Shown here: positions 17,402 to 43,656 of the stretch, piece by piece
Position numbering within the stretch: position 1 is the first letter of the stretch
Layout: each line of letters starts with the position of its first letter
NCBI RefSeq assembly: GCF_029227855.1
Contig: NZ_CP074356.1
Direction: 5' to 3' (one strand)
Source: Escherichia coli
GTDB taxonomy: Bacteria; Pseudomonadota; Gammaproteobacteria; Enterobacterales; Enterobacteriaceae
Length of the DNA stretch: 64,000 bases
Made by a program: the position numbers and the translations under genes
The notes under the pieces: model-generated
Databases searched by the model: none
What the model saw: only the letters and a program-made list of their open reading frames with translations
Told to the model about the DNA's origin: nothing

Positions 17402-17557
17402 ATGAAGCAGCAAAAGGCGATGTTAATCGCCCTGATCGTCATCTGTTTAACCGTCATAGTGACGGCACTGGTAACGAGGAAAGACCTCTGCGAGGTACGA
17501 ATCCGAACCGGCCAGACGGAGGTCGCTGTCTTCACAGTTTACGAACCTGAGGAGTAA
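17402..17557 (+). CDS. hokD: Hok/Gef-family type I toxin (51 aa), HokD/RelF-like
   Basis: MKQQKAMLIALIVICLTVIVTALVTRKDLCEVRIRTGQTEVAVFTVYEPEE; single TM helix plus conserved Cys pattern. Confidence 0.75.
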   Translation: MKQQKAMLIALIVICLTVIVTALVTRKDLCEVRIRTGQTEVAVFTVYEPEE

Positions 17558-21415: not shown

Positions 21416-21862
21416 ATACATATCTGGATTATCACCTGTTACGGTAAAAAGTGATTGCTTACTGTTTTTGTGAATGGCATTGCAGCAGCCGGATAATGTC
21501 AGTGCTGGCTGACGGTGTGCTGGTGGCGGGTGTGGTGGTTGTTGCTTTCCCGTTGCTGAAAAAGAAAACGCCAGACTGTTAGCCGGGTATCAGTTAGCGG
21601 GAGAAATTTTTAAATACTTCACAATTCAGGCGGTTGACTGTTGTCTGGTTTGCGGGGAGTTTGTTAAAAGAAACTGGCATGGTGAATCCCCCTGTGCGGA
21701 GGGGCAATCAGCGAGTAGGTATATGGGATAATCGCGGATTCAGGTGCTGGTACTGAATTCACCGGGAGGCACCCGGCACCATGCAATGGCACATAGCGCC
21801 ACTCTCCAGCCCCTCTCCGGAGGGGCTGTTTATATTGATTTTGTCAGATGTGAGTAAACTCC

Positions 21863-26555: not shown

Positions 26556-27075
26556 ATGAAGGTTAATAAAAAGAAACTTGCCGAAATTTTCAACGTGGAT
26601 CCGCGAACGATTGAACGCTGGCAGTCTCAGGGACTCCCTTGCGTCTCCGGAGGTGGTAAGGGCGTTGAATCTGTATTTGATACCGCCATGGCAATTCAGT
26701 GGTATGCGCAGAGGGAAGCTGATATCGAAAATGAAAAACTCCGTAAAGAGGTTGAGGATTACAGGGCTGCCAGTGAGGCAGATCTCCAGCCTGGGACTAT
26801 TGAGTACGAACGCCATCGACTTACGCGTGCGCAGGCCGACGCACAGGAGCTGAAGAATGCCAGAGACTCCGCAGAGGTGGTGGAAACCGCATTCTGTACT
26901 TTCGTGCTGTCACGGATCGCAGGTGAAATTGCCAGTATTCTTGACGGGATCCCTCTCTCGGTACAGCGGCGTTTTCCGGAACTGGAAAACCGACATGTTG
27001 ATTTCCTGAAACGGGATATCATCAAAGCCATGAACAAAGCAGCCGCGCTGGATGAACTGATACCGGGGTTGCTGA

Positions 27076-27101
<26 letters not shown>
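26556..27101 (+). CDS. Nu1: Terminase small subunit
   Basis: 181 aa collinear with lambda Nu1 (C-terminal two-thirds nearly identical; N-terminal DNA-binding region diverged). Confidence 0.9.
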
Positions 27102-30782
<3,681 letters not shown>

Positions 30783-30802
<20 letters not shown>

Positions 30803-32102
30803 TCTCCCGCATATTGCCAGCATGGCCTTTAATGAGCCGCTGATGCTTGAACCCGCCTATGCGCGGGTTTTCTTTTGTGCGCTTGCAGGCCAGCTTGGGA
30901 TCAGCCGCCTGACGGATGCGGTGTCCGGCGACAGCCTGACTGCCCAGGAGGCACTCGCGACGCTGGCATTATCCGGTGATGATGACGGACCACGACAGGC
31001 CCGCAGTTATCAGGTCATGAACGGCATCGCCGTGCTGCCGGTGTCCGGCACGCTGGTCAGCCGGACGCGGGCGCTGCAGCCGTACTCGGGGATGACCGGT
31101 TACAACGGCATTATCGCCCGTCTGCAACAGGCTGCCAGCGATCCGATGGTGGACGGCATTCTGCTCGATATGGACACGCCCGGCGGGATGGTGGCGGGGG
31201 CATTTGACTGCGCTGACATCATCGCCCGTGTGCGTGACATAAAACCGGTATGGGCGCTTGCCAACGACATGAACTGCAGTGCAGGTCAGTTGCTTGCCAG
31301 TGCCGCCTCCCGGCGTCTGGTCACGCAGACCGCCCGGACAGGCTCCATCGGCGTCATGATGGCTCACAGTAATTACGGTGCTGCGCTGGAGAAACAGGGT
31401 GTGGAAATCACGCTGATTTACAGCGGCAGCCATAAGGTGGATGGCAACCCCTACAGCCATCTTCCGGATGACGTCCGGGAGACACTGCAGTACCGGATGG
31501 ACGCAACCCGCCAGATGTTTGCGCAGAAGGTGTCGGCATATACCGGCCTGTCCGTGCAGGCTGTGCTGGATACCGAGGCTGCAGTGTACAGCGGTCAGGA
31601 GGCCATTGATGCCGGACTGGCTGATGAACTTGTTAACAGCACCGATGCGATCACCGTCATGCGTGATGCACTGGATGCACGTAAATCCCGTCTCTCAGGA
31701 GGGCGAATGACCAAAGAGACTCAATCAACAACTGTTTCAGCCACTGCTTCGCAGGCTGACGTTACTGACGTGGTGCCAGCGACGGAGGGCGAAAACGCCA
31801 GCGCGGCGCAGCCGGACGTGAACGCGCAGATCACCGCAGCGGTTGCGGCAGAAAACAGCCGCATTATGGGGATCCTCAACTGTGAGGAGGCTCACGGACG
31901 CGAAGAACAGGCGCGCGTTCTGGCAGAAACCCCCGGTATGACCGTGGAAACGGCCCGCCGCATTCTGGCCGCAGCACCACAGAGTGCACAGGCGCGCAGT
32001 GACACTGCGCTGGATCGTCTGATGCAGGGTGCACCGGCACCGCTGGCTGCAGGTAACCCGGCATCTGATGCCGTTAACGATTTGCTGAACACACCAGTGT
32101 AA
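30783..32102 (+). CDS. C: Head maturation protease / scaffold C
   Basis: GTG start giving VTAELRNLPHIASMAFNEPLMLEP..., 439 aa as lambda gpC; track ORF begins further upstream in the same frame. Confidence 0.9.
31707..32102 (+). CDS. Nu3: Scaffolding protein Nu3 (in-frame internal start within C)
   Basis: Internal ATG giving MTKETQSTTVSATASQ..., 131 aa, same frame as C. Confidence 0.6.
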   Translation: MTKETQSTTVSATASQADVTDVVPATEGENASAAQPDVNAQITAAVAAENSRIMGILNCEEAHGREEQARVLAETPGMTVETARRILAAAPQSAQARSDTALDRLMQGAPAPLAAGNPASDAVNDLLNTPV

Positions 32103-32111
32103 GGGATGTTT

Positions 32112-32444
32112 ATGACGAGCAAAGAAACCTTTACCCATTACCAGCCGCTGGGCAACAGTGACCCGGCTCATACCGCAACCGCGCCAGGCGGATTGAGTGC
32201 GAAAGCGCCTGCAATGACCCCGCTGATGCTGGACACCTCCACCCGTAAGCTGGTTGCGTGGGATGGCACCACCGACGGTGCTGCTGTCGGCATTCTTGCT
32301 GTTGCTGCTGACCAGACCAGCACCACGCTGACGTTCTACAAGTCCGGCACGTTCCGTTATGAGGATGTGCTCTGGCCGGAGGCTGCCAGCGACGAGACGA
32401 AAAAACGGACCGCGTTTGCCGGAACGGCAATCAGCATCGTTTAA
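32112..32444 (+). CDS. D: Head decoration protein D
   Basis: [27 protein letters not shown]...; lambda gpD. Confidence 0.9.
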
Positions 32445-32499
32445 CCTTACCCTTCATCACTAAAGGCCGCCTGTGCGGCTTTTTTTACGGGATTTTTTT

Positions 32500-32775
32500 A
32501 TGTCGATGTACACAACCGCCCAGCTGCTGGCGGCAAATGAGCAGAAATTTAAGTTTGATCCGCTGTTTCTGCGTCTCTTTTTCCGTGAGAGCTATCCCTT
32601 CACCACGGAGAAAGTCTATCTCTCACAAATTCCGGGGCTGGTAAACATGGCGCTGTACGTTTCGCCGATTGTTTCCGGTGAGGTTATCCGCTCCCGTGGC
32701 GGCTCCACCTCTGAATTTACGCCGGGATATGTCAAGCCGAAGCACTTAGCATGGCTTTCTGAGGCTTTCGTGTAG
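32500..32775 (+). pseudogene. E: Major capsid protein E, 5' fragment (codons 1-82) disrupted by insertion
   Basis: MSMYTTAQLLAANEQKFKFDPLFLRLFFRESYPF...EFTPGYVKPKH matches lambda gpE, then reads into foreign sequence (LAWLSEAFV, stop at 32775). Confidence 0.85.
32735..32744 (+). repeat. Left copy of 10-bp direct repeat AGCCGAAGCA (putative att core of the inserted element)
   Basis: Identical 10-mer at 43864..43873 exactly where E homology resumes. Confidence 0.6.
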
Positions 32776-32907
32776 CTGCTGGTTTTTACACTTAATCTTT
32801 TGATAATAAAGAATAAGTTTATCTGGCGCTTTCACTGAATTTTCCTCGTTATCTGTGTGTTGCAATCATCTCTGTATTGCAGCTTGTATTGCTTTTTGGG
32901 GCTAAAA

Positions 32908-34143
32908 ATGGCTGGCGAGAACAAACTGAGCGACAAAGCGCTTAAAGGATATCTGGGGAAACCCAGAGAAAAGCAGATCACCATTGCTGATGGAAAGGGG
33001 CTTTCTATTCGTGTGAGTACTAAAGGGGCTGTGAGCTTTGTTTTCTTCTACAGGTTAGCAGGTGGCCGGGCTGCTCCGGTCTGGCTAACGTTGGGTAAAT
33101 ATCCTGATATGTCACTCAAACAGGCAAGGGAAAAGCGCGACGAGTGCCGTGGTTGGTTGGCTGACAAACGTGATCCGCGTATCCAGATTAAGATTCAGGC
33201 TGAAGAACGCTTAAAGCCGGTCACAGTGGAGGATGCACTAAATTACTGGTATGAAAATTACTGTAAGGTGCGTCGTAAAACTCATGCTGTAACGCTTGGC
33301 AGATTTCGAAAGCATATCTTTCCCTATATCGGTCATTTGCCCGTAAATGACACTCACCTATATGAATAGCTGGACTGTTTTGACCGAATTAAACGTAATG
33401 CACCAGTTATGGCGGCGTATGTTTTTTCTGACACTAAATTAGCTCTTCGTTTTTGTCGGGTACGCCAGTACGCGACGTGTGATGCTTTAAAGGATTTGCG
33501 CATGAGTGATGTGGGGCAGATTGCAGGTAAGCGGGATCGGGTTCTGGATGAGGTCGAACTCGGCCAGCTCTGGAAGGCAATTTTTGTCGAGCCTGATTTA
33601 AAACTAATGTCTGAATACACGCGAAAAATGTTTGTGCTTTGTACAGTATTTGGATGTCGAATGAGTGAAGCCCGATTATCAGAATGGAGCGAATGGGATC
33701 TCGAAAGTTGGGTTTGGACTGTGCCAAAAGATCACTCAAAAACTGGTGTTGAAATCGTCAGACCAGTACCTGAAATTCTACGACAGTGGGTAACGGATGT
33801 TCACGAAGAGACAAAACATACTGGTTATGTGCTGGGAAGTCTGCGAATTAGAGAAAGCGTAAGCAAGATTGGGGGGAAAATCGGTAAACGTTTGGGCCAT
33901 GAAAAACAATGGTCACTACACGACCTTAGAAGAACGCTATCTACTCATCTAAGTGATCTCGGTGTTGAATTTTATGTAGTAGAACAACTGTTAGGCCATG
34001 CGCTACCTGGCGTGGCAGGTGTTTACAACCGGAGTAAGTTTATGGCTAAAAAACTGGATGCTCTGGAACTCTGGACTACATATCTCAATAGCATCGCAGC
34101 TGCTGATTCAAAAGTGACAATCCTCAAACAAAAGGCTGGTTAG
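32908..34143 (+). pseudogene. int: P4-type tyrosine integrase interrupted by an in-frame amber codon (TAG at 33367..33369)
   Basis: Track ORFs 32857..33369 and 33409..34143 are in the same frame; P4-int-like N-terminus (..KGLSIRVSTKGAVSFVFFYR..GKYPDMSLKQAREKRDE..); TAG sits where homologues have Trp. Confidence 0.8.
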
Positions 34144-34144
34144 C

Positions 34145-34375
34145 ATGAAAAAAATGGCAATTGTTGATAAAAAGGGTCTGGAGTACATTCCTAACATTGA
34201 CCGAATGATCCGTGAGAAAGAATGTCGGGAGCTAACTACTCTTGCGAACAGCACACGCTGGAAGCTGGAGAAGGAAGGAAAATTTCCTAAGCGGATCAAG
34301 ATTGGTTCCACTGCTGTTGCATATCGTCTTTCAGAAGTGCAGGCATGGATTCGAGGTGAGTGGGAAACAACTTAA
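34145..34375 (+). CDS. alpA: AlpA-family transcriptional regulator / excisionase-like protein
   Basis: 76 aa, HTH (..CRELTTLANSTRWKLEKEGKFPKRIKIGSTAVAYRLSEVQAWI..) directly after int. Confidence 0.75.
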   Translation: MKKMAIVDKKGLEYIPNIDRMIREKECRELTTLANSTRWKLEKEGKFPKRIKIGSTAVAYRLSEVQAWIRGEWETT

Positions 34376-34382
34376 CTATTAG

Positions 34383-35213
34383 GTGGGCATTGTGGCTATA
34401 TTTCATTATACAGATCTTTTTGGTTTGAAAGGTATATTAGACTCTAATTCTTTATGGGCTACAAACATATATTTCTTAAATGATAAAGAGGAGTCTAACC
34501 ATGGATGTGAATGCTTTCGAAATACAATTAAAATAGTTGATGACAATATCATTCCAAAAGATAAGAAAACTATTTTGCTCAAGTCTCTTGACATGTATGA
34601 GAAAGGGAGGTTACAAAAAGAAAAAGGGATTGATAAACATGTTTATAGCATCTCTTTTTGTAAGGAAAACGATAAGTTAAGTCAGTGGAGAGGTTACGGA
34701 AATAAACAGGGTGTTTGCATTGAGTTTGATGCGGATGAACTTGTGAGCTTTTCTCAAAATATTTATTTAAATTGTGTTGCACATGATGTTATATATTCAA
34801 ATAATAACGATATTACTAAGATGAGTAAGGAGTTGGGAGAGTTTTTTTCTTGTAATGGTATTAATATTAAAGAAATGAATGATCATTTTGTAACAATGGT
34901 CTCTACGTATCAATTTATATCTAAATACATCCCATTTTTTAAACATCCTAGTTTTATCGAAGAGAATGAATTTAGATTGGTATTTACTCCGTGGATGCAA
35001 ATGCCAGATGTGCACTTCAGAATAAATAATAATGGGATCATCCCTTATATCATCATTGATAATAAAGATAATAGAAAGTTACCAATTAAAAGCATTACAA
35101 TTGGCCCGACAAACGATTATGATTTCATTGAGGCTGGTATAAAAATGTTCTTGGATTCAAGAGGATTTAGTTCTGTGGAAATTAAATCCTCATCAATTCC
35201 ATTCAGGGGGTAA
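34383..35213 (+). CDS. DUF2971-like protein (276 aa), AT-rich cargo gene
   Basis: N-terminal IFHYTDLFGLKGILDSNSLWATNIYFLNDKEE resembles the DUF2971 signature; very low GC; start could be GTG 34383 or GTG 34391. Confidence 0.6.
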   Translation: MGIVAIFHYTDLFGLKGILDSNSLWATNIYFLNDKEESNHGCECFRNTIKIVDDNIIPKDKKTILLKSLDMYEKGRLQKEKGIDKHVYSISFCKENDKLSQWRGYGNKQGVCIEFDADELVSFSQNIYLNCVAHDVIYSNNNDITKMSKELGEFFSCNGINIKEMNDHFVTMVSTYQFISKYIPFFKHPSFIEENEFRLVFTPWMQMPDVHFRINNNGIIPYIIIDNKDNRKLPIKSITIGPTNDYDFIEAGIKMFLDSRGFSSVEIKSSSIPFRG

Positions 35214-35258
35214 GGATTAACACTTTTAATCTATGATATTATAAAAATGGTGGATAAA

Positions 35259-35278
35259 GGCGACCAGAATTGGTCGCC
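35259..35278. terminator. Bidirectional hairpin between convergent cargo genes
   Basis: AGGCGACCAGAATTGGTCGCC perfect inverted repeat. Confidence 0.4.
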
Positions 35279-35344
35279 AATGTGAGTATATAGTTAGCCT
35301 TAATCAGAATACGAGGTTATCGCCTGATAGGCAATGTGAACAGT

Positions 35345-35701
35345 TCAATATTTAGGTGGTTCAACAAGAGCGTTTATCATTGCTCTCAAATTATCGCGAA
35401 CACTTATCCAAGTCTGTTCTGCTCGTTCTAACTCATCAGTGTACAACTTTAATGTTTTATCTATGCCATATGTGGCTATTAAATTTATAGCTTCTTGTAA
35501 TTTTTCAGGATTATTCCTTCTTGGGGGAGTGAATATACCACGGATTTTTCCGGTAATTAAAGCTTTACGGTGTCTACATAGAATACCTTTACTTCCTGCT
35601 GGACAATTACAAGTCATGATTAGCGAGCCAGAATCGTTTGATACAGTGACTATGTATACATCCAAACTACTGCTACTTGTTGCGAAGAATTCGTATTTCA
35701 T
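35345..35701 (-). CDS. Small SWIM-type zinc-finger protein (118 aa)
   Basis: CNCPAGSKGILCRH (CxC..CxH) motif; AT-rich. Confidence 0.55.
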   Translation of the reverse strand: MKYEFFATSSSSLDVYIVTVSNDSGSLIMTCNCPAGSKGILCRHRKALITGKIRGIFTPPRRNNPEKLQEAINLIATYGIDKTLKLYTDELERAEQTWISVRDNLRAMINALVEPPKY

Positions 35702-35728
35702 GTGTTAGCTCCTTGACTTCAATTATTC

Positions 35729-35860
35729 TTATCCTTTTGGTTCAATACCGCGCCGTAGCAGCTCTTTGCGCCCTAATTCTTTAAGCCAGTTGGCTAGGCT
35801 TATGCCGTCGCTCTGCGCTTCTTTGTCGAATTGCTCTTTTAGCTCTGGAGAAATTCGCAT
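35729..35860 (-). CDS. Small ribbon-helix-helix-like protein (43 aa; longer in-frame form to 36043 possible)
   Basis: MRISPELKEQFDKEAQSDGISLANWLKELGRKELLRRGIEPKG; immediately upstream of the SWIM gene on the same strand. Confidence 0.45.
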   Translation of the reverse strand: MRISPELKEQFDKEAQSDGISLANWLKELGRKELLRRGIEPKG

Positions 35861-36059
35861 TCTGAATTGTGGAGATTGCCCATCACCCTTAGGACTTTTA
35901 TCGCGTTTGATCGTTGACAAGTGACCACCTATTGAATTAGCCTTTTCATTGTTAGGTGACCACCTTAACACGGGGGCACTTAAAAAAGCAAAGCCCGAAG
36001 GTGCTGGGAACACCAACGGGCTTCTAACCACCAACGATAGCAACAGTATCGAGGTAGCT

Positions 36060-36263
36060 ATGAGAAATCATACCACACACCCGCAAGGGCGGGACCCGCA
36101 CAACCTGAATAAATACATCTGGCGTTTTATCGCCTTGAGTACGGCACAACCGCGCATGATTACCATCGAGGCCATCAGCGAACAGGAAGCCCGCCAGCAA
36201 TCCCCAACTGGCTGCGTGATGGTATTCGCCGCCCGTATTCGTCAGGAGGTGTGCCGTGCTTAA
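36060..36263 (+). CDS. Small hypothetical satellite protein (67 aa)
   Basis: ATG with GAGG RBS; first of five tightly coupled small genes preceding the primase. Confidence 0.4.
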   Translation: MRNHTTHPQGRDPHNLNKYIWRFIALSTAQPRMITIEAISEQEARQQSPTGCVMVFAARIRQEVCRA

Positions 36264-36441
36264 AACCTTCCGTGTATTTGCCCGAGCTGTTAACCCACTG
36301 GGCCACACAATTGGTATCACTCAGAACGTGAAGGCTGTTAATGTTCAGACGGCTATTGCTGCGGTGAGAAGCGAATCATCAGAATATGGCTTATCACAAG
36401 TCATTATTTCAGCAGTGTATGAATTAAAAGAGGTGCATTAA
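36256..36441 (+). CDS. Small hypothetical satellite protein (61 aa)
   Basis: Track ORF, overlaps neighbours by a few nt. Confidence 0.4.
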   Translation: MLKTFRVFARAVNPLGHTIGITQNVKAVNVQTAIAAVRSESSEYGLSQVIISAVYELKEVH

Positions 36442-36632
36442 TGCAGGAAATCACATTACACGAAGCCGCTGAACGTGCGCACCAGACAGAAATTATTTGC
36501 CGCCTTCTTGAGGTATACCCGAACAAAATTACAGATGCTGATATATCCGCGCTGGCGAGCCTACTGGCGCGCCTTTCGGGAAGTGTCGCTAGTTTCCTGA
36601 TTGAGGAAGAAAGTAAGCTGGTGGGGGATTAA
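36441..36632 (+). CDS. Small hypothetical satellite protein (63 aa)
   Basis: Track ORF, start overlaps upstream stop. Confidence 0.4.
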   Translation: MQEITLHEAAERAHQTEIICRLLEVYPNKITDADISALASLLARLSGSVASFLIEEESKLVGD

Positions 36633-36854
36633 ATGAATACAGAACGGGAAGTCTTTTTTAAATTGTTAGCATGTGCAGAAAGTTCATTAACTTTAAATAA
36701 TTCAGCAAAAGCAATATTAAATATGTGGCTTGATTGCATAAATGACAATGAAGATGCAAATATTGCTTATGGCCTGTTGTCACTTATTGATGAATCAGCA
36801 GAAAAACTCAATGACGCAATAAATAGTGCCCTGCTATCAAATAAGTCGAGTTAA
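36633..36854 (+). CDS. Small hypothetical satellite protein (73 aa)
   Basis: Track ORF. Confidence 0.4.
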   Translation: MNTEREVFFKLLACAESSLTLNNSAKAILNMWLDCINDNEDANIAYGLLSLIDESAEKLNDAINSALLSNKSS

Positions 36855-36871
36855 GTCGAGGAATAAATAAT

Positions 36872-37171
36872 ATGGAAATGAAAAATTCTGGCTTTATTGC
36901 CAGCGGCCCCGCTCGGCCTGAATTTATGAACGGCGATATTTACCGCGATAAATACGGCGGCACGGTAACGATTAAAGGCGTGGCAGAACGGCGCATCACT
37001 TACCGCCGTGAGGGGTATAGCTATGACTGCGTGATGCCTGTTTATCAGTTCCGGCGTGATTTTTCCCTGGTATATGCCGCACCCCGCAGTAAGCCCATCA
37101 GCAGGGAAAAAGCGCGGGGAAACATCCAGAAAATGAAAAGCATGATTAACGCATTCAGGGGCAAAAAATGA
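36872..37171 (+). CDS. Small hypothetical satellite protein (99 aa)
   Basis: Track ORF, stop overlaps primase start. Confidence 0.45.
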   Translation: MEMKNSGFIASGPARPEFMNGDIYRDKYGGTVTIKGVAERRITYRREGYSYDCVMPVYQFRRDFSLVYAAPRSKPISREKARGNIQKMKSMINAFRGKK

Positions 37172-38919
37172 AACTGGCACCGAACTTAAAAAAACAGCCA
37201 CGCGACAGACTGACAGAGGTAATCATCTTTGCAGGTAGTGATGCGTGGAGCCATGCGAAAGAGTGGCGGGAATGGGCGGGTAAACATATTGCCGCCGACG
37301 ATGTGCCGCCTGTCGTGCTGGCTGATGAGCAACTGAAAAATATCACCGATTACCGGATCATTGATGAAGATCGTCAGTGTGTGCGTGTTTACCGCGCAGG
37401 ACATATCACAGAGCACAGCATGACGCAGATTGTTACGTTACTGGCTGTGGCTGGAGTGAAGACCGTACACGAATACGCGGGGATTACTGACACCAGCCCA
37501 GTGGATTTATCCGAGCAGTTGCCGCGACTCAAAGAGGAATGCGAGCGTGGGGAAAGTCTGGTGCTTAATCTTCCGACGAAGCAAAAGGCGCAACTTTCAC
37601 AGATGGCAGACAGTGAACGTGCACAACTACTTGCCGATCGCTTTGATGGTGTGTGTGTTCATGCAGAAAGTGAAATCGTCCACGTATGGCGCGGCGGGGT
37701 ATGGTGTCCGGTCAGCACAATGGAGCTGAGCCGCGAAATGGTGGCGATCTATTCAGAGCACAGGGCCACGTTCAGCAAACGTGTAATCAATAACGCCGTG
37801 GAAGCGTTAAAAGTTATTGCCGACCCCATGGGGGAGCCGTCCGGTGATTTGCTACCGTTCACTAATGGTGTGCTTAACCTGAAAACGGGGGAATTTTCTC
37901 CGCACTCGCCGGAGCACTGGAGCACCACGCACAATGGCATTGAGTACACGCCACCAGTAGCAGGGGAAAACATCCGCGATAATGCGCCAAATTTCCATAA
38001 ATGGCTTGAACATGCTGCAAGAAAAGACCCGCGCAAGATGATGCGTATATGTGCCGCGTTATACATGATTATGGCGAACCGCTACGACTGGCAGATGTTC
38101 ATTGAGGCCACCGGAGACGGGGGAAGCGGTAAGAGTACATTTACCCATATTGCCACCCTGCTTGCTGGCAAACAGAACACCGTAAGCGCGGAGATGACAT
38201 CACTCGATGATGCAGGAGGGCGCGCGCAGGTTGTCGGGAGTCGTCTTATCGTCCTTGCCGATCAGCCGAAATATACGGGGGAAGGCACGGGCATCAAGAA
38301 AATCACGGGAGGCGATCCCGTTGAAATTAACCCGAAATATGAGAAGCGATTCACGACGATAATAAGGGCGGTGGTACTGGCAACCAATAACGACCCGATG
38401 ATCTTTACCGAACGGGCCGGAGGTGTGTCACGCCGTCGGGTGATTTTCCGGTTCGACAACATTGTAAGGGAGGACGAAAAAGACAAGGAATTACCGGAAA
38501 AGATAGCGGCAGAAATCCCCGTAATTATCCGCCGCTTGCTGGCTAATTTTGCTGACCCTGAAAAGGCACGGGCTTTATTACTGGAACAGCGTGACGGTGA
38601 TGAAGCTCTGGCAATAAAGCAGCAAACGGATCCGGTTGTTGAGCTTTGCGCGGCGCTGGAGTTTCTGGAGGAAGCTCGTGGGCTAATGATGGGCGGTGGT
38701 GGTGACACCGTGAAGTACACGACCAGAAACAGCCTTTACCGTGTCTATATGGCCTTCATGGCATACACAGGAAAGGGGAAATGTTTGAGCGTGAATGAGT
38801 TCGGAAAGGCTATGAGGTCAGCGGCGAAAGTTTACGGATATGAATATATTACGCGAAAAGTTAAGGGAGTCACGCAGACCAACGCAACGACTACTGATGA
38901 TTGCGATGCGTTTTTATAA
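37168..38919 (+). CDS. Primase/replicase (P4 alpha / D5-type), 583 aa
   Basis: Walker A GDGGSGKST in the C-terminal half; large N-terminal domain; followed by iterons. Confidence 0.8.
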   Translation: MKLAPNLKKQPRDRLTEVIIFAGSDAWSHAKEWREWAGKHIAADDVPPVVLADEQLKNITDYRIIDEDRQCVRVYRAGHITEHSMTQIVTLLAVAGVKTVHEYAGITDTSPVDLSEQLPRLKEECERGESLVLNLPTKQKAQLSQMADSERAQLLADRFDGVCVHAESEIVHVWRGGVWCPVSTMELSREMVAIYSEHRATFSKRVINNAVEALKVIADPMGEPSGDLLPFTNGVLNLKTGEFSPHSPEHWSTTHNGIEYTPPVAGENIRDNAPNFHKWLEHAARKDPRKMMRICAALYMIMANRYDWQMFIEATGDGGSGKSTFTHIATLLAGKQNTVSAEMTSLDDAGGRAQVVGSRLIVLADQPKYTGEGTGIKKITGGDPVEINPKYEKRFTTIIRAVVLATNNDPMIFTERAGGVSRRRVIFRFDNIVREDEKDKELPEKIAAEIPVIIRRLLANFADPEKARALLLEQRDGDEALAIKQQTDPVVELCAALEFLEEARGLMMGGGGDTVKYTTRNSLYRVYMAFMAYTGKGKCLSVNEFGKAMRSAAKVYGYEYITRKVKGVTQTNATTTDDCDAFL

Positions 38920-38935
38920 AAAATGGCAATGGTTA

Positions 38936-39170
38936 TCTACCTTGTCTACCTGACTGAAAGAAAATACTTTTATTTCAATGTATTAATGCAGGTAGATAAC
39001 TATTTTTCACTGTCTACCTGTTATCTACCTTATCTACCCATTTTTGTAGACAGGTAAGGAGACGGGTAGAGATGAGGTAGACAGCTATTTGGGGCTGTCT
39101 ACCTCCCTGAAACCCGCGCCATTACTGGCCTGATAACTAATCAGGTAGACAAGGTAGACAAGGTGGTGGT
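38936..39170. repeat. Iteron array (putative satellite replication origin)
   Basis: About 12 copies of (A/G)TCTACC / GGTAGA(C/T) in both orientations within ~235 bp. Confidence 0.7.
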
Positions 39171-39208
39171 GCACAAAAAACTTTTTAAACGAGGGGGTAA
39201 AAATAAAA

Positions 39209-39466
39209 ATGCACACTTCAGGAAAACTGAACAAACATATAAAGCCACATTACCGCGCCCTTGATATGGCTGAACACTGGCTAAGGGTGGCGATTAAGGC
39301 AATAGACCGCAACGCCGGGGAAGGATACGCGAAAGCACATCCCGAACTGATAAGCGCATTCATGACAACGGCGGCTGCAAACTTTGCCACGCTGACCGAA
39401 CGGGAGATTGCTGAAGCGGAGGAAGTGACAACAATCAATATTAAGTCCGGAGAGCAGGCAGCATGA
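39209..39466 (+). CDS. Hypothetical satellite protein (85 aa)
   Basis: Track ORF, translationally coupled to the SSB gene. Confidence 0.45.
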   Translation: MHTSGKLNKHIKPHYRALDMAEHWLRVAIKAIDRNAGEGYAKAHPELISAFMTTAAANFATLTEREIAEAEEVTTINIKSGEQAA

Positions 39467-39912
39467 CGGCGCAAATATCAGTTTACGGGCGGTTGGTGGA
39501 CGACCCGCAGACAAAACAGACCAGCAAGGGCACCCCCATGACGCTGGCGCGTATGGCGGTATCACTGCCCTGCAGTCAGTCGGATGACGGTCTGGCGACG
39601 TTGTGGTTATCTGTCCTGGCGTTTGGCAGACAAGCCGACGCGCTGGCAAAGCATCACAAAGGCGAACTCCTGAGCGTGGCGGGTAACATGCAGATGAGCC
39701 AGTGGACTGGACAGAACGGCGAAACGCGGCAGGGCTGGCAGGTTATCGCAGACAGCGTAATCAGTGCGCGATCGGTGCGACCGGGCGGCAAAAAAGGCCA
39801 ACAGGGGCAGGCTACTGACGCACTGAACAGAGCAAAACAACAGGCAGATCAGCAAGGAAGCCAGCCACCAGAGGGAGATAATGAGCAATGGGGAGATGAT
39901 ATCCCGTTTTAA
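39463..39912 (+). CDS. ssb: Single-stranded DNA-binding protein
   Basis: OB-fold-like N-terminus, Gly/Gln-rich linker and acidic C-terminal tail ending DDIPF. Confidence 0.8.
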   Translation: MTAQISVYGRLVDDPQTKQTSKGTPMTLARMAVSLPCSQSDDGLATLWLSVLAFGRQADALAKHHKGELLSVAGNMQMSQWTGQNGETRQGWQVIADSVISARSVRPGGKKGQQGQATDALNRAKQQADQQGSQPPEGDNEQWGDDIPF

Positions 39913-40128
39913 ATATTGCCAATAAAAAAAGCCGGAAAAAATAAATTTTCCGGCATGCTACATAAATCCCGACCAAAGGGAGTGAAGATATTAACACTAA
40001 TTGTCCGCACTGAAGTTGTCACACCAAAACTTTATACAACATTGCACTCGGTTGCATGTGTTCGCATGACAAATATCGGTGATAGCATATATCCACAATT
40101 ATTTTTAATGAATGCAAAGAGGATGCGT

Positions 40129-41169
40129 ATGGTTGATTTATATTCGCCTACTCAGCTTGTACAGGTAGTTAATGCTGTAGATGTACAAAAACAACTAAAT
40201 GCGTTGTTTACCAGTTTGTTTTTTACTCGCTCGGTAATGTTTGAATCGCGCGATATTATTCTTGATACAATCGACGATCCAAATATCCCAATTGCAGCGT
40301 TTTGTTCTCCTATGGTGGGTAGTAAAGTTTCACGTGACGAAGGGTACGAATCAAAAACAATTCGTCCAGGCTATATGAAGCCGAAAAGCAGCATTGATCC
40401 AAATAAGTTAGCTGTGCGCCCTGCTGGTGTGTCACCTGAGCAATACAATGCTTTTGGGGCGCGTAATATTAAAGTTAAACAGGCGATTGTAAATCAGGCT
40501 AAAGCTATTCGTGCACGTATTGAATGGCTTGCTGTTCAGGCAATCACAACGGGGAAAAATATCATTGAGGGCGATGGTATTGAACGTTATGAGCTGGACT
40601 GGAATATAAAACCACAAAATATCATCACTCAGTCTGGCGGTACTGAGTGGTCAGGTAAGGATAAAGAAACTTTTGATCCAAATGATGATATTGAGAGCTA
40701 CGCAGAATTTAGTGAGGGCGTCACTAATATCATCATTATGGGTGGTAATGTATGGAAGAAATACCGTTCATTCAGAGCGATAAAAGAGGCTTTGGATACC
40801 CGTCGTGGTTCTAATTCCGAACTGGAAACGGCCCTTAAAGACCTTGGTGATTCGGTGAGTTTTAAAGGGTATATGGGCGATGTTGCGATTGTTGTTTACA
40901 GCGGGCGTTATACCGACGAGGACGGAACAGAAAAACATTTCCTTGATCCTGATTTGATGGTGCTTGGCAATACGGCTCTTCAGGGGATTGTCGCCTATGG
41001 CGGTATTCAGGATCCGGAGCTAATCCGAATGGGGCTGACTAAAGCCGAACTTGCACCGAAAAACTATATTGTGCCTGGTGATCCGGCTATTGAATATGTG
41101 CAGACACATTCAGCACCACAGCCAATACCGGCCCGCATCAATCGTTTTGTTACCGTTCGCATTGGCTAA
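40129..41169 (+). CDS. Satellite-encoded major capsid protein, lambda gpE family (346 aa)
   Basis: Collinear similarity to gpE (ITQSGGTEWSGKDKETFDPNDDIESYA..., ..LDTRRGSNSELETALKDLG..GDVAIVVYSGRY..MVLGNT..); start set at MVDLYSPTQ with AGGA RBS. Confidence 0.8.
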   Translation: MVDLYSPTQLVQVVNAVDVQKQLNALFTSLFFTRSVMFESRDIILDTIDDPNIPIAAFCSPMVGSKVSRDEGYESKTIRPGYMKPKSSIDPNKLAVRPAGVSPEQYNAFGARNIKVKQAIVNQAKAIRARIEWLAVQAITTGKNIIEGDGIERYELDWNIKPQNIITQSGGTEWSGKDKETFDPNDDIESYAEFSEGVTNIIIMGGNVWKKYRSFRAIKEALDTRRGSNSELETALKDLGDSVSFKGYMGDVAIVVYSGRYTDEDGTEKHFLDPDLMVLGNTALQGIVAYGGIQDPELIRMGLTKAELAPKNYIVPGDPAIEYVQTHSAPQPIPARINRFVTVRIG

Positions 41170-41178
41170 GGGGGAGCA

Positions 41179-41520
41179 ATGGCTACTCATTACACTGAAC
41201 TCATGGCTGGCACTGAAGCACTGGTGACTACGCTGGGGATATTTTCAGCTAATAAAGGGGTAATTCCTGCATTTACGCCACTGATGCAGGAAGATGCAAC
41301 AGGTGCACTGGTGGTATGGGATGGTTCGAGCGTAGGTAAAGCGGTTTATGTTTCCGCTGTACAAATCGACACCGCGAAAAAAACACAGGCTCAGGTCTAT
41401 AAGACAGGTGTCTTAAATGTTGATGCTCTGAACTGGCCTGAGTCTGTTAAAGAACTGTCAGTAAAGGTTGCAGCGTTTGTTGGCTCAGGTATTTCTGTTC
41501 AGCCGCTGGCTCGTGTGTAA
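41179..41520 (+). CDS. Satellite-encoded head decoration protein, lambda gpD-like (113 aa)
   Basis: Shares THY, TPLM, LVVWDG, YKTG, WPE, AF.G..IS motifs with gpD at matching positions. Confidence 0.7.
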   Translation: MATHYTELMAGTEALVTTLGIFSANKGVIPAFTPLMQEDATGALVVWDGSSVGKAVYVSAVQIDTAKKTQAQVYKTGVLNVDALNWPESVKELSVKVAAFVGSGISVQPLARV

Positions 41521-41531
41521 AGGGGGATACA

Positions 41532-41915
41532 ATGCAGAATGATTACAATGACCTTAAGCCAATTGCCGAAATGATGTACCCGAATCAAGCTGTAGAGGAA
41601 TTAAAAGCTATCGCTGACAAAATGTGTTTAAGCGAGCGCCTTGTTGATATGAATCAGGTGATGGAAATTACAACCCTGAGTCGTCGTACACTGCTAAACC
41701 TTGAGGCTAGTGGAGAGTTCCCGGAGCGTGTGCAGGTTACGGAAGGGCGTAAGGCCTGGTATTTAAGTGAAGTGATCGACTGGATAAATAATATTCCTCG
41801 CGCTTCTGAATATTGCCGCGTACCTGTCCCAAAAAAGCCAGATGCGGCGCTATGCCTCAAGATTGAGCGTGTACGCCGCAATGCACGGGATGGTCGCTAT
41901 AAGCTGATTGGTTGA
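41532..41915 (+). CDS. AlpA/MerR-like winged-HTH protein immediately upstream of the satellite cos
   Basis: 127 aa with HTH (..MNQVMEITTLSRRTLLNLEASGEFPERVQVTEGRKAWYLSEVIDWINN..). Confidence 0.6.
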   Translation: MQNDYNDLKPIAEMMYPNQAVEELKAIADKMCLSERLVDMNQVMEITTLSRRTLLNLEASGEFPERVQVTEGRKAWYLSEVIDWINNIPRASEYCRVPVPKKPDAALCLKIERVRRNARDGRYKLIG

Positions 41916-41939
41916 TGAAATTAGGACCCGCTCTGGCTG

Positions 41940-42145
41940 GCGGGTCCTTTCCGGCGATCCAGAACGTTACGGGGCGTCAGGCGCGCAGTTTTTCGCTATT
42001 TGTGAAAATTTTCCTGTTTAAGGCGTTTCCGTTCTTCTTCGCCGTAACTTAATGTTTTTATTAAAAACACCCCCTAAAAAGAAAGGAAACGACAGGTGCT
42101 AAAAACAGGCTTTTTGGCCTCTGTCGTTTCCTTTCTCTGGTTTTG
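41940..42145 (+). other. Second cos site, belonging to the satellite: altered cohesive-end sequence (GGGCGTCAGGCG at 41972..41983) with lambda-type cosB elements
   Basis: GGGTCCTTTCCGGCGATCC..GTTACG|GGGCGTCAGGCG|CGCAGTTTTTCGCTATTTGTGAAAATTTTCCTGTTTAAGGCGTTTCCGTTCTTCTTCG..GAAAGGAAACGACAGGTG..TCTGTCGTTTCCTTTCTC tracks lambda cos closely. Confidence 0.75.
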
Positions 42146-42481
42146 TTGCCATCCGTCGCGGTCTATCACCAGAAAAAATCTTATCCCTGAGTTGAATCAG
42201 GCCCTATTCAGAAGCGGCCAATAACGCGCCGCTAGCTTCACTTCATAGTTATGGCCTACTTCTGCGCCATTGCAATTGCTTTATGCGCCTTGATGGTGGA
42301 ATATAGAGCAAGCAGTTTGCGAATAACAAAGTTTCATATGTTTTTTGCTGTGTGGCTAGACAACTTTACAGCAGAGTTTTGTGTCAGTTCTTTATGTGTG
42401 CAAGCAAGCTTGAGGGGGAATTACTTCTGGCTGTATCTTTGCTTAAGAACAGCAATAATTTAATCATAAGGAAATGTATAT

Positions 42482-42513: not shown

Positions 42514-43656
42514 TTAACTCCTTATTAGAGAGTAAATTCCATCCTCTTTAAGGAAGTCTATTACTTCAAAGAATGAGATAAAGAATTCCCAAGAACCAAA
42601 AGCATATGCATGAATTTCGTAAGGTGCAAAATGGAATCTAAATCCATCACTATTTATTGTGAACGAGTCTAAGTTACTATCCATGATACCCGTTGCAAAC
42701 GTACTAATGTCGTCCTCACTTGGTTTTTCACCAGTTTTCTCCCAAAATTCACGAGCTGATTCAGAGATTATTTTTTGTTTTATCTTATTAATCGCTTCTT
42801 GCTCTTTCCCTTCGGTAAATACATCCCATAAACTAAATTTGTATGCGTAGTCATCCTTGGTTATTACGAAATTACTAGTTTCAAAATGACTGTTAGGGTG
42901 TGCTGCTCCCGCACCATACCAATGTACGGAATGAAGGATGCTCATGACATTTTCGTTACAGTATGAGATGTTATAACTTTCATTATAGGAACTAGTGTAA
43001 GTGTGTTTATATTCTTCATCCCAATATGGTGTTCCTGGCCATAGTGATGTGCGTTCAGAAAAAATATGTAAAGCCGCTTTTCCTGAAAAGTAATCACTAA
43101 TGAGTTTTGCTGATTTCGGTAATGTATGGCTTTCAATTCTTGGATATGCTATTTCAATTTCATGCCCTGGGATCTTGTTATATTCTTCCTTGAAAACCTC
43201 GCTGCTAAAGTTAAATGGCCCATAAGTGATACCTTGAGATATTTCAAGTTTTTGTTGCGATGCTGCTAATCTTAAAGATCTAGATAAAATGTCCCAACCA
43301 TCATTTCTCTTAAAATCAATGAATTGGAGCTTGCTTGATATGTAGGCGGGTACTTCGCAATCATCAATAAGTAATGGTATCACGAACACATCATCTGGTT
43401 TGTAATACTTTAGTTTATCAATGGCGTCATTTATTTCGCGGCGAATATAACCATTTTTCTGAGTGCTCACTTTGCTAAGGATAAGGATTATCAAGTTTGA
43501 ATTAGCGAAGTTTTTTTGGATTTCATAATCCCAGTTTACGCCAGCGGGTATATCTTTTACATCCATCCAAGGGGAATATCCTCCACTTTTTAGCCTTTCA
43601 TAGATTTCTTCAGTTATCGTTTCATCTTCTTTTGCATGAGCAAGAAAAATTTTCAT
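42514..43656 (-). CDS. TIR-domain protein with ~250-aa C-terminal domain of unknown function (380 aa); candidate anti-phage defence gene
   Basis: N-terminus MKIFLAHAKEDE...SNLIILILSKVS..YIRREINDAIDK..VIPLLIDD fits the bacterial TIR pattern; AAGGA RBS; AT-rich; between satellite cos and right att repeat. Confidence 0.75.
   Translation of the reverse strand: MKIFLAHAKEDETITEEIYERLKSGGYSPWMDVKDIPAGVNWDYEIQKNFANSNLIILILSKVSTQKNGYIRREINDAIDKLKYYKPDDVFVIPLLIDDCEVPAYISSKLQFIDFKRNDGWDILSRSLRLAASQQKLEISQGITYGPFNFSSEVFKEEYNKIPGHEIEIAYPRIESHTLPKSAKLISDYFSGKAALHIFSERTSLWPGTPYWDEEYKHTYTSSYNESYNISYCNENVMSILHSVHWYGAGAAHPNSHFETSNFVITKDDYAYKFSLWDVFTEGKEQEAINKIKQKIISESAREFWEKTGEKPSEDDISTFATGIMDSNLDSFTINSDGFRFHFAPYEIHAYAFGSWEFFISFFEVIDFLKEDGIYSLIRS

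What the first reader, a model, noticed from the sequence alone, without database searches (positions are those of the whole stretch)
35345..36043. Convergent two-gene unit: ribbon-helix-helix-like protein followed by a stand-alone SWIM zinc-finger protein
On the minus strand a 43-aa RHH-like ORF (or a longer in-frame form) precedes a 118-aa protein with a CxC..CxH SWIM motif. Both are AT-rich and separated from the DUF2971 gene by a perfect bidirectional hairpin. The arrangement resembles a toxin-antitoxin or small regulatory pair; a stand-alone SWIM protein of this size has no function known to me.
Basis: inference. Interest (0 to 1): 0.5.

Follow-up and report, generated by a model that had tools for sequence, protein, structure and literature searches.

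The report
Satellite repressor gene with SWIM cargo
The two small genes are not a toxin-antitoxin pair: the first is the likely master repressor of a phage satellite embedded in an E. coli prophage, and the second is an uncharacterised zinc-finger passenger gene transcribed with it that may protect the cell against other phages.

Summary
Both ORFs are real. The window is E. coli. The pair lies in an ~11 kb helper-embedded PICI satellite (the published "11capE" type), inserted in a lambdoid prophage capsid gene.

The ribbon-helix-helix (RHH) gene is 63 aa, with a TTG start at 35920. It is neither the 43-aa nor the 104-aa form. It is a conserved core gene of Gram-negative PICIs, including the model EcCICFT073. 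It always sits opposite the early icd-to-primase operon. Two palindromic operators overlap the inferred promoters and change in step with the RHH beta-strand residues. A conserved, covarying antisense-RNA element lies beside it.

The SWIM gene (Pfam SWIM; invariant CxCx8CxH; AlphaFold pLDDT 94) is AT-rich cargo in the slot just downstream of the repressor. Sister satellites carry the validated defence gene PD-T7-1 there, or a small lipoprotein-like ORF, or nothing. SWIM relatives are stand-alone accessory genes in prophages; one lies directly after a cI-type repressor.

The toxin-antitoxin reading is rejected. The best model is a repressor plus a co-transcribed accessory gene, arranged like lambda cI-rexAB. 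A defence or exclusion role for SWIM is inferred, not shown.

The parts
35729..35920 (-). RHH gene, 63 aa, TTG start; candidate master (immunity) repressor of the satellite
   Evidence: PHROG Arc-like repressor 4.5e-6. Pfam HicB (RHH part) 0.002. hhalign to Arc 1.6e-4 and Mnt 8.9e-4, using sequences recalled from memory. Start position, length and the GIEPKG tail are conserved in more than 25 loci. The substitution pattern is that of a coding frame. The gene is not annotated in RefSeq for the identical element.
35702..35728 (-). 27-nt spacer with Shine-Dalgarno AAGGAG; no room for a promoter, so RHH and SWIM are co-transcribed (inferred)
   Evidence: Sequence. The same 27-nt spacing is seen in L002-L009.
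35345..35701 (-). SWIM zinc-finger plus coiled-coil protein, 118 aa; AT-rich cargo gene in the slot downstream of the repressor
   Evidence: Pfam SWIM 3.9e-5. PHROG 13130 full length, 1e-82. AlphaFold pLDDT 93.8, pTM 0.79: three strands, the Zn site, a helix, then helices 65-76 and 80-113. GC 36%. Present in 52 of 5426 complete E. coli genomes.
35919..35930 (.). Proximal operator (AGGTGGTCACTT on the minus strand); overlaps the RHH start codon and lies in the spacer of the inferred early promoter
   Evidence: The 10-mer AGGTGGTCAC occurs exactly twice in 64 kb, both copies here (expected 0.05). An equivalent repeat pair is seen in 24 loci, and its sequence tracks the RHH beta-strand residues.
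35954..35965 (.). Distal operator, palindrome AGGTGGTCACCT, 35 bp from the proximal copy
35914..35943 (+). Inferred early promoter P_E: -35 TTGACA (35914-35919, the reverse complement of the RHH start and Ser codons), 18-nt spacer, -10 TAGCCT (35938-35943)
   Evidence: ATGTCA / TTGTCA / GTGTCA is conserved at every RHH start, giving TTGACA on the other strand. A TAnnnT box follows at 17-18 nt in the loci read. Inference only; not found by the strict consensus scan.
35962..35970 (-). Inferred RHH promoter, extended -10 TGTTAAGGT, overlapping the distal operator (autoregulation)
   Evidence: A similar TGnTAnnnT box is seen at this position in several loci. Inference.
35982..36060 (-). Candidate ~79-nt cis-antisense RNA covering the ribosome-binding site and start of the first early gene. 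It has a 5' small hairpin and a terminator hairpin (arms 35991-36003 / 36011-36023) plus a U-run. A -10-like TGGTATGAT box lies at 36067-36075.
   Evidence: 12 of 13 terminator pairs show compensatory changes. 91% of cells are paired; 0 of 500 shuffles reach this. Pairing is 94.4% on this strand against 83.5% on the other, with 32 G-U cells. Covariance model R1 gives one hit in the window (84.8 bits), hits EcCICFT073 and the Klebsiella satellites that were not in the training set, and gives no hit in phage-only loci. No Rfam family matches.
36060..36263 (+). icd-like gene, the first gene of the early operon (icd-like to DUF4222 to primase at 37168-38919), the presumed target of the RHH repressor and the antisense RNA
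   Evidence: RefSeq annotation of the identical element; ORFs.
35259..35278 (-). Perfect 8-bp hairpin followed by UUUAU on the minus strand; probable terminator of the RHH-SWIM transcript
   Evidence: sequence. Not conserved in sequence in other SWIM loci.

Best explanation
The unit is the leftward 'maintenance' operon of a Gram-negative phage-inducible chromosomal island, here of the helper-embedded type. It has two functionally separate genes.

1. RHH. The 63-aa Arc/Mnt-like RHH protein binds two 12-bp palindromic operators (35919-35930 and 35954-35965). The proximal operator lies between the -35 and -10 boxes of the early promoter and overlaps the RHH start codon. The distal operator overlaps the RHH promoter. 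Binding therefore shuts off the icd-to-primase early operon and limits RHH's own synthesis, keeping the satellite quiescent. A ~79-nt antisense RNA across the ribosome-binding site of the first early gene adds a second lock. Transcription entering from the int/alpA side (AlpA-activated, or helper late read-through) would run antisense over SWIM, RHH and the operators, and is the probable way the lock is opened.

2. SWIM. The SWIM plus coiled-coil protein is horizontally acquired cargo, translated from the same mRNA, so it would be made while the satellite is silent. This is the position rexAB holds behind lambda cI. I think it most likely benefits the host and satellite by interfering with other incoming phages. 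The proposed means is the zinc-finger domain binding a nucleic acid or a phage protein, with the coiled coil assembling the protein into oligomers.

Shown: gene reality, conservation, operator co-variation, RNA covariation, variability of the slot, protein fold.
Inferred: promoter positions, repression, co-transcription, mode of induction, and any defence activity.
For: Context:
- The element has int, alpA, cargo, primase, SSB and capsid E/D homologues, and sits inside a lambdoid capsid gene. This is the type described in PMC10111431.

RHH:
- It shows RHH similarity.
- It faces the early operon in every locus read: L002-L009, L016-L053, and EcCICFT073 in L059.
- A 10-13 nt repeat pair sits next to or over the start codon in 24 loci. 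Its sequence groups with the RHH beta-strand residues.
- The 10-mer is unique to this spot in the window.

Antisense RNA.

SWIM as cargo:
- The slot after RHH holds SWIM, or PD-T7-1 (PADLOC 1.8e-156; validated in PMC9519451), or a 50-aa lipoprotein-like ORF, or nothing.
- SWIM is 36% GC, like the other cargo genes DUF2971 (31%) and TIR (36%). RHH is 46%.
- One family member sits 31 nt after an S24 cI-type repressor (L011). Another is an accessory gene on the cI strand of a lambdoid prophage.
- SWIM and its relatives match the N-terminal region of the PADLOC defence candidate PDC-S62 (4.9e-5 to 1e-6).
Against: - There are no expression, binding or phenotype data. All promoter calls rest on sequence conservation, and the strict sigma-70 scan found none here.
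- The PDC-S62 match is weak, partial, and to an untested candidate.
- No SWIM relative was found in 50,697 sequenced phage genomes, and none is a validated defence gene.
- SWIM and RHH have co-diverged across five immunity types with a fixed 27-nt spacer. That could instead mean they work together.
- Fusions of the SWIM module to a DEDDh exonuclease and to BRCT point to DNA metabolism rather than specifically to defence.
- GN-PICI literature assigns induction to AlpA and does not mention this gene.
Confidence: 0.6

Rival explanations
1. Type II toxin-antitoxin module: RHH is an autoregulating antitoxin and SWIM is a novel toxin that it neutralises.
For: - The layout is typical: a small RHH gene first, a 118-aa gene 27 nt downstream, and palindromes at the promoter.
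- NCBI names many RHH homologues 'HicB family antitoxin'.
- The element is mobile.
Against: - The two genes do not co-occur. None of 29 species-representative RHH loci has SWIM. A ~90% identical RHH is followed by a 50-aa ORF.
- SWIM relatives stand alone in prophages.
- RHH has only a 7-residue tail beyond helix 2, and that tail is conserved whatever follows, so there is no toxin-binding domain.
- SWIM matches no toxin family or fold.
- The operators overlap the satellite's early promoter, which gives RHH another job.
Confidence: 0.04
2. SWIM is a partner of the repressor. It acts as a co-repressor, or as the sensor or anti-repressor that detects a helper-phage protein and lifts RHH repression. 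A 63-aa RHH is too small to do this itself, unlike Stl of SaPIs.
For: - The genes are co-transcribed with a fixed 27-nt spacer.
- RHH and SWIM have co-diverged across five immunity types in E. coli and Klebsiella.
- SWIM domains are described as protein- or DNA-binding modules (general knowledge of PF04434).
- The conserved GIEPKG tail of RHH has no assigned role.
Against: - Most satellites with this RHH, including EcCICFT073, have no SWIM, so the switch works without it.
- The GIEPKG tail is just as conserved without SWIM.
- SWIM relatives sit in phages that use unrelated cI/S24 repressors, or sit in tail-gene clusters.
- The AT-rich composition marks SWIM as acquired separately from RHH.
Confidence: 0.13
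3. SWIM acts on DNA metabolism of the helper phage or the host for the satellite's own benefit. Examples are interference with helper replication or packaging, or an anti-defence or host-takeover factor. On this view it does not protect against unrelated phages.
For: - The same SWIM plus helix module is fused to a DEDDh 3'-5' exonuclease and to BRCT domains in other bacteria (P0197, P0175; AFDB hits 42-45).
- EcCICFT073 interferes with lambda through genes that have not been identified (PMC6092414).
Against: - Being transcribed with the repressor argues for expression in the silent state, not during helper growth.
- Family members are carried by the phages themselves.
- EcCICFT073, which does interfere with lambda, has no SWIM.
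Confidence: 0.2
4. The RHH ORF is not a gene. It is the shadow of a plus-strand gene, annotated as a 247-aa hypothetical protein in O157:H7 and as a pseudogene in the identical E. coli element.
For: - The antisense frame is free of stops in 21 of 25 loci.
- PGAP annotates that strand.
Against: - Substitution statistics favour the RHH frame.
- RHH family profiles match.
- The plus-strand frame is broken in the window, and its translation is rich in Ser, Leu, Cys and Pro, which is not protein-like.
- The RHH start, stop and length are fixed across Enterobacterales.
Confidence: 0.03

Closest known systems
Lambda cI-rexA-rexB immunity operon (and other accessory genes placed just after a prophage repressor, e.g. 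BstA of BTP1); from general knowledge
   Same: A repressor gene is followed on the same transcript by an accessory gene that would be expressed in the silent state. The slot is variable and holds a validated defence gene (PD-T7-1) in sister elements. One SWIM relative sits directly after an S24 cI-type repressor.
   Different: The repressor is a 63-aa RHH protein, not an HTH/S24 protein. The element is a satellite. The cargo is an uncharacterised zinc-finger protein with no demonstrated exclusion activity.
Phage P22 immI region (Mnt and Arc RHH repressors, overlapping Pant/Pmnt promoters, sar antisense RNA); from general knowledge
   Same: A small Arc/Mnt-like RHH repressor (PHROG Arc-like 4.5e-6; hhalign). 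A palindromic operator lies inside overlapping, oppositely directed promoters. A short cis-antisense RNA lies over a ribosome-binding site.
   Different: The controlled operon is the satellite's replication/early operon beginning with an icd-like gene, not an antirepressor. There are two operators about 35 bp apart. Direct sequence similarity to Mnt and Arc is marginal.
Stl / Rpr master repressors of Gram-positive PICIs (SaPIs)
   Same: The position and logic match: a leftward repressor gene faces the rightward replication operon and holds the island silent (PMC6092414).
   Different: The protein is unrelated, tiny, and has no obvious domain for binding a helper-phage inducer. For Gram-negative PICIs the literature says a global repressor is 'unclear' and assigns induction to AlpA.
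RHH antitoxins (HicB C-terminal domain, ParD, CopG-type)
   Same: RHH DNA-binding domain. Pfam HicB hit at 0.002. The NCBI name 'HicB family antitoxin' is given to many homologues.
   Different: There is no HicA or other toxin partner and no toxin-neutralising domain. The neighbouring gene is variable or absent.
P1 immI / P4 immunity (c4 or CI RNA upstream of icd)
   Same: A small regulatory RNA lies immediately upstream of an icd-like first gene in a P4-like or PICI early operon.
   Different: The RNA here is on the opposite strand (cis-antisense). It does not match Rfam C4, IsrK or any other family. It is paired with a protein repressor.
Eukaryotic and bacterial SWIM domains (MuDR transposases, SWI2/SNF2 ATPases, MEKK1, ZSWIM8)
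   Same: The CxCxnCxH zinc-binding signature and the predicted beta-beta-beta-alpha core. A weak profile hit to the ZSWIM8 SWIM domain (E 0.34).
   Different: This is a stand-alone 110-120 aa protein with a C-terminal coiled coil and a conserved SSS/Y motif of its own. No catalytic partner domain is present.

Membership tests
SWIM zinc finger (Pfam PF04434) | CxCxnCxH metal-binding signature | tested here: met
   C31, C33, C42 and H44 are present in the window protein and invariant in 118 aligned family members.
SWIM zinc finger (Pfam PF04434) | Significant match to the family profile | tested here: met
   Pfam i-E 3.9e-5, model positions 1-34 of 38. Precomputed PF04434 hits on homologues.
SWIM zinc finger (Pfam PF04434) | Zinc actually bound | not testable with these tools
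   Needs metal analysis of purified protein.
Ribbon-helix-helix (Arc/MetJ/CopG) DNA-binding proteins | N-terminal beta-strand followed by two helices, recognisable by family profiles | tested here: met
   PHROG 228 Arc-like repressor 4.5e-6. Pfam HicB 0.002. Full-length but weak match to the protein of PDB entry 2kel, which I recall to be the RHH regulator SvtR (E 0.25). hhalign to Arc 1.6e-4 and Mnt 8.9e-4, in register. No structure prediction was run for this protein.
Ribbon-helix-helix (Arc/MetJ/CopG) DNA-binding proteins | Binds palindromic or repeated operators at its own promoter | tested here: inconclusive
   Two 12-bp palindromic sites are present, statistically unexpected and co-varying with the beta-strand residues. 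Binding itself was not tested.
Type II toxin-antitoxin system | Toxin and antitoxin genes are inherited together as a pair | tested here: not met
   RHH occurs without SWIM in 29 of 29 species-representative loci, and also in the Klebsiella, Providencia and Serratia satellites and in EcCICFT073. SWIM relatives occur without RHH.
Type II toxin-antitoxin system | Second gene belongs to a toxin family or fold | tested here: not met
Type II toxin-antitoxin system | Antitoxin carries a toxin-neutralising segment besides the DNA-binding domain | tested here: not met
   Only a 7-residue tail (GIEPKG) follows helix 2, and it is conserved irrespective of the downstream gene.
Type II toxin-antitoxin system | Toxicity of gene 2 relieved by gene 1 | not testable with these tools
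   Needs expression assays.
Gram-negative PICI / helper-embedded PICI (PMC6092414, PMC10111431) | int, alpA and primase co-oriented, ~10-20 kb, often with a capsid gene; the HE-PICI type is integrated in a helper late gene | tested here: met
   Window genes: int 32908-34143 (with a nonsense codon), alpA, primase 37168-38919, SSB, and capsid E/D homologues. The element interrupts a lambdoid major capsid gene that resumes at about 43878. This matches the description of 11capE.
Anti-phage defence gene | Located in a variable cargo slot of a mobile element that carries known defence genes in relatives | tested here: met
   The same slot holds PD-T7-1 in Klebsiella satellites (1.8e-156). The neighbouring slot holds DUF2971, PDC-S35 TIR or Bro-N genes.
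Anti-phage defence gene | Homology to an experimentally validated defence protein | tested here: not met
   The only match is partial and weak, to the untested candidate PDC-S62 (4.9e-5). No paper in the library mentions PDC-S62.
Anti-phage defence gene | Reduces phage plating or burst | not testable with these tools
   Needs phage challenge assays.

The most novel reading that the evidence does not exclude
Two linked novelties are not excluded.

(a) The 56-64-aa RHH protein, its co-varying operators and the adjacent antisense RNA may be the long-sought master switch of Gram-negative PICIs. They are present in the model island EcCICFT073 and across Enterobacterales, and come in many immunity types.

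(b) The small SWIM plus coiled-coil proteins may be a new single-gene anti-phage exclusion or defence family, carried behind repressor genes of prophages and satellites.
Probability: 0.35. Interest if true: 0.65.

Novelty: new variant of a known kind. Interest (0 to 1): 0.5.

Why it matters
The founding paper on Gram-negative PICIs states that a global repressor in these islands is 'unclear' (PMC6092414). Later genomic work on the helper-embedded type treats all informative genes as unidirectional (PMC10111431). The minus-strand RHH gene, its operators and the antisense RNA give a concrete switch that can be tested with reporter fusions, footprinting and a single deletion in EcCICFT073. They also predict immunity types among co-resident satellites.

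The slot behind the repressor emerges as a cargo position: it holds PD-T7-1, a small lipoprotein-like ORF, or SWIM. That makes the uncharacterised SWIM plus coiled-coil family (187 representative clusters) a reasonable candidate for phage-challenge screens.

RefSeq currently misses the RHH gene in this element and annotates its shadow ORF instead.

Tried and rejected
- Rfam, gathering threshold on the whole window and E<=10 on 35100-36500: nothing at the locus. No C4 or IsrK hit.
- Consensus promoter/terminator scan: no site in 35200-36100. Promoters were therefore inferred from cross-locus conservation only.
- tblastn of the window SWIM and of two relatives against 50,697 phage genomes: no match.
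- PDB sequence searches: only coiled-coil noise, ZSWIM8 at E 0.34, and entry 2kel for RHH.
- The first AlphaFold run with 6 sequences was poor (pLDDT 67). The 118-sequence alignment gave 93.8.
- The A4 alignment was too diverged for a viral-contig scan. A scan with A1 returned only near-identical copies of the same satellite.
- Literature searches for SWIM with PICI, prophage defence or anti-phage, RHH with PICI, PDC-S62, and YlcI/YnfO/DUF3950 found nothing relevant.
- I considered that c1499 and c1500 of EcCICFT073 might be the minus-strand genes. They are the capsid and decoration genes.
- I considered the plus-strand ORF over RHH as the real gene and rejected it.
- I considered the 104-aa and 43-aa RHH forms and rejected them on the basis of homologous start positions.
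Full report
**Observation.** Both ORFs exist on the minus strand.
- The downstream ORF (35345-35701, 118 aa) carries C31-x-C33-x8-C42-x-H44.
- It hits Pfam SWIM (i-E 3.9e-5) and PHROG 13130 over its full length (1e-82).
- The upstream ORF ends at 35729 and reads as a ribbon-helix-helix (RHH) protein: PHROG 'Arc-like repressor' 4.5e-6 and Pfam HicB 0.002.
- A perfect 8-bp hairpin lies at 35259-35278 between SWIM and the convergent DUF2971 gene.

Three details of the finding need correction.
- The RHH start is TTG at 35920 (63 aa). It is neither the 43-aa nor the 104-aa form. Homologues from more than 25 divergent loci all begin at that position with (M/L/V)ST.K.
- Only SWIM is AT-rich (36% GC). 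RHH is 46% GC, like the surrounding core.
- Only the minus strand has a (weak) U-tract after the hairpin.

**Where it is.** The window is E. coli. It aligns at 98.8% with strain 10 over window 26700-42275. The RefSeq annotation there shows an element with integrase, AlpA-type regulator, DUF2971, SWIM, icd-like, DUF4222, primase, SSB, major capsid and head decoration genes. The element sits inside the major capsid gene of a lambdoid prophage.

This is the 'helper-embedded PICI' of the 11capE type described in PMC10111431. That paper states that all non-hypothetical genes are unidirectional, so the two minus-strand genes were not discussed. In the window the integrase carries an in-frame TGA at 33367-33369 where strain 10 has Trp.

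**Is the RHH ORF real?** RefSeq does not annotate it in the identical element. It calls a pseudogene on the other strand instead. In O157:H7 a 247-aa 'hypothetical protein' is annotated over it. The antisense frame is indeed open in 21 of 25 loci.

However, that frame is the one whose third codon positions coincide with those of RHH. Its translation is Ser/Leu/Cys/Pro-rich. The substitution pattern favours RHH:
- Nucleotide differences by RHH codon position are 1540/1037/2856.
- Amino-acid identity is 70% against 55%.
- Mean BLOSUM62 score of replacements is -0.04 against -1.0.

Together with the family-profile hits and an in-register hhalign match to Arc and Mnt (E 1.6e-4 and 8.9e-4; sequences recalled from memory), I take the RHH gene as real and the antisense ORF as a shadow.

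**What the RHH gene is.** A profile of five homologues finds at least 558 protein clusters. Almost all are 56-64 aa. They are variously named 'HicB family antitoxin', 'YlcI/YnfO family' or 'Repressor', and end in a near-invariant (R/Q)GIEPKG.

In every context read, the gene lies after int-alpA (plus or minus cargo) and faces an early operon that runs to a primase or helicase. These contexts are E. coli, Klebsiella, Providencia, Serratia, and 29 species-representative genomes from Morganella, Yersinia, Xenorhabdus, Photorhabdus, Pantoea, Citrobacter, Buttiauxella, Tatumella, Rahnella and Rosenbergiella.

The model island EcCICFT073 has the same layout, with a more distant 59-aa YlcI/YnfO protein. 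[quoted passage not shown]

**Operators and promoters.** Upstream of the RHH start, 24 loci carry a 10-13-nt repeat pair with at most one mismatch.
- The proximal copy abuts or overlaps the start codon. The distal copy is usually 31-35 bp away.
- Each copy is itself palindromic.
- The sequence differs between loci in groups that follow the RHH beta-strand residues. For example, F(R/K)MRI(S/T)PE goes with AGGTG(G/A)(T/C)CACCT, FQIRISKE with GTACGTACGTAAC, YQMRLTEE with GGTAATTACCATG, YQIRL(A/Q)HE with TTGTAATTACAA, and FQFRLDPE with GTGTAATTACAC.
- In the window the 10-mer AGGTGGTCAC occurs exactly twice in 64 kb, at 35921-35930 and 35956-35965. The expected count is 0.05.

The conserved start-Ser-Thr codons (TTG/ATG/GTG TCA AC) read TTGACA on the other strand (35914-35919). 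A TAnnnT box follows 17-18 nt further on, TAGCCT at 35938-35943 in the window. I infer an early promoter whose spacer contains the proximal operator, and an RHH promoter (extended -10 TGTTAAGGT, 35962-35970) that overlaps the distal operator. These are inferences. The strict consensus scan found nothing here.

**A neighbouring RNA element.** Between the operators and the icd-like start lies a conserved minus-strand element. It comprises a -10-like box over the icd-like ATG, a small 5' hairpin, and a terminator hairpin (35991-36023) with a U-run.
- In 22 distinct sequences, 12 of 13 terminator pairs show compensatory changes.
- 91% of cells are paired, and 0 of 500 shuffles reach this.
- Pairing is 94.4% on the RHH strand against 83.5% on the other, with 32 G-U cells.
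- A covariance model has one hit in the window (35981-36068, 84.8 bits). It also hits EcCICFT073 (74.6 bits), the Klebsiella satellites and the O157 island, none of which was used to build it. It finds nothing in phage-only loci.
- Rfam has no match.

The simplest reading is a ~79-nt cis-antisense RNA over the ribosome-binding site of the first early gene.

**What the SWIM gene is.** Close relatives are rare: 8 clusters and 52 of 5426 complete E. coli genomes. All sit 27 nt after an RHH gene in satellites of at least five operator types.

The slot itself is variable.
- Klebsiella satellites carry a 449-aa protein there that is PD-T7-1 (1.8e-156). PD-T7-1 is a validated defence gene (PMC9519451).
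- Providencia and Rahnella satellites carry a 50-aa lipoprotein-like ORF, even where RHH is about 90% identical to the window's.
- Most loci carry nothing.

SWIM shares the low GC of the element's other cargo genes, DUF2971 at 31% and the TIR protein at 36%.

A full HMMER scan finds 187 representative clusters of the same 110-120-aa architecture. Members are found in several settings:
- 31 nt after an S24 cI-type repressor (L011).
- As an accessory gene on the cI strand of a lambdoid prophage.
- In a Mu-like tail cluster next to an ORF6N gene.
- In phage-plasmid-like Salmonella contigs beside toxin-antitoxin and Bro-N genes.

**Interpretation.** The toxin-antitoxin reading fails its main test, which is co-inheritance, and SWIM has no toxin features. 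The data fit an immunity operon:
- an RHH repressor that controls overlapping promoters and holds the replication operon silent;
- a second lock provided by an antisense RNA;
- a passenger gene translated from the repressor transcript, as rexAB is behind lambda cI.

I rate 'RHH is the operator-binding repressor of the early operon' at about 0.75, 'SWIM is independent cargo' at about 0.8, and 'SWIM acts in exclusion or defence against other phages' at about 0.4. The rivals for SWIM are a partner or sensor of the repressor (0.13) and a DNA-metabolism or helper-interference factor (0.2).

A plausible route of induction is transcription from the alpA side or from helper late read-through. PMC10111431 hypothesises the latter for this element. 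Such transcription would run antisense across SWIM, RHH and the operators. This is speculation.

**Novelty and weight.** The element type is published. RHH repressors, accessory genes behind repressors, and antisense immunity RNAs are all known kinds. What appears unreported in the searched literature is twofold: Gram-negative PICIs carry this conserved RHH, operator and antisense-RNA module, and the small SWIM plus coiled-coil family travels in the slot downstream of the repressor. Nothing here is experimentally shown. The value lies in making an open question about PICI repression directly testable and in nominating a defence candidate.

Noticed in passing
window 35982-36075 (-): Conserved candidate cis-antisense sRNA (~79 nt) over the ribosome-binding site and start of the icd-like gene. 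It has strong covariation in its terminator hairpin and no Rfam family. It is present in EcCICFT073 and in many Enterobacterales satellites.
   Followed up: yes
window 33367-33369 (integrase 32908-34143, +): The satellite integrase has an in-frame TGA where the near-identical element in E. coli strain 10 has Trp (…HLYE*LDCF… against …HLYEWLDCF…). The satellite in this strain may be unable to excise, which would leave the helper prophage capsid gene permanently split.
   Followed up: partly
window ~32.9-43.8 kb: The whole ~11 kb satellite is inserted in the major capsid gene (lambda E homologue) of a lambdoid prophage and carries its own E and D homologues (about 40.1-41.5 kb). This is the published HE-PICI '11capE' configuration (PMC10111431).
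   Followed up: yes
window 42514-43656 (-): A 380-aa AT-rich (36% GC) protein with an N-terminal TIR domain (PADLOC Aga_TIR-PNTD 1.6e-17; ThsB-like hits) lies at the right end of the satellite. This region differs from strain 10 (L001 16978-18586). It is probably a second defence cargo.
   Followed up: partly
window 34383-35213 (+): The DUF2971 gene (31% GC) occupies a second variable slot after alpA. Related satellites carry there a CAP12/TIR protein (PADLOC PDC-S35, 2e-68), Bro-N or AntA genes, or nothing. DUF2971 itself hits PDC-S31 only weakly (1.3e-4).
   Followed up: partly
window 35731-35997 (+); L057 5558-6301: RefSeq annotates the shadow frame antisense to RHH, as a pseudogene here and as a 247-aa hypothetical protein in O157:H7, and misses the 63-aa RHH gene. 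The antisense frame is stop-free in 21 of 25 loci, more often than my rough estimate from codon usage.
   Followed up: yes
RHH residues 57-63 (window 35732-35752): A near-invariant C-terminal tail (R/Q)GIEPKG runs across the RHH family, regardless of the downstream gene. Its role is unknown; it could be a docking site for an inducer, a protease tag or an oligomerisation element.
   Followed up: no
L059 8242-8415 (-) (EcCICFT073); L020 4196-4348; L051: Other occupants of the slot downstream of RHH: a 57-aa basic ORF in EcCICFT073, and a conserved 50-aa lipoprotein-like ORF (MKAILWILALVLASLFFIRSC…) in Providencia and Rahnella satellites. The latter is reminiscent of small exclusion lipoproteins.
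   Followed up: no
window 11550-11601, 17234-17404, 21648-21837: Rfam gathering-threshold hits elsewhere in the window: DicF, sok antitoxin RNA, STnc100, and four tRNAs. These are ordinary prophage and cryptic-prophage features.
   Followed up: no
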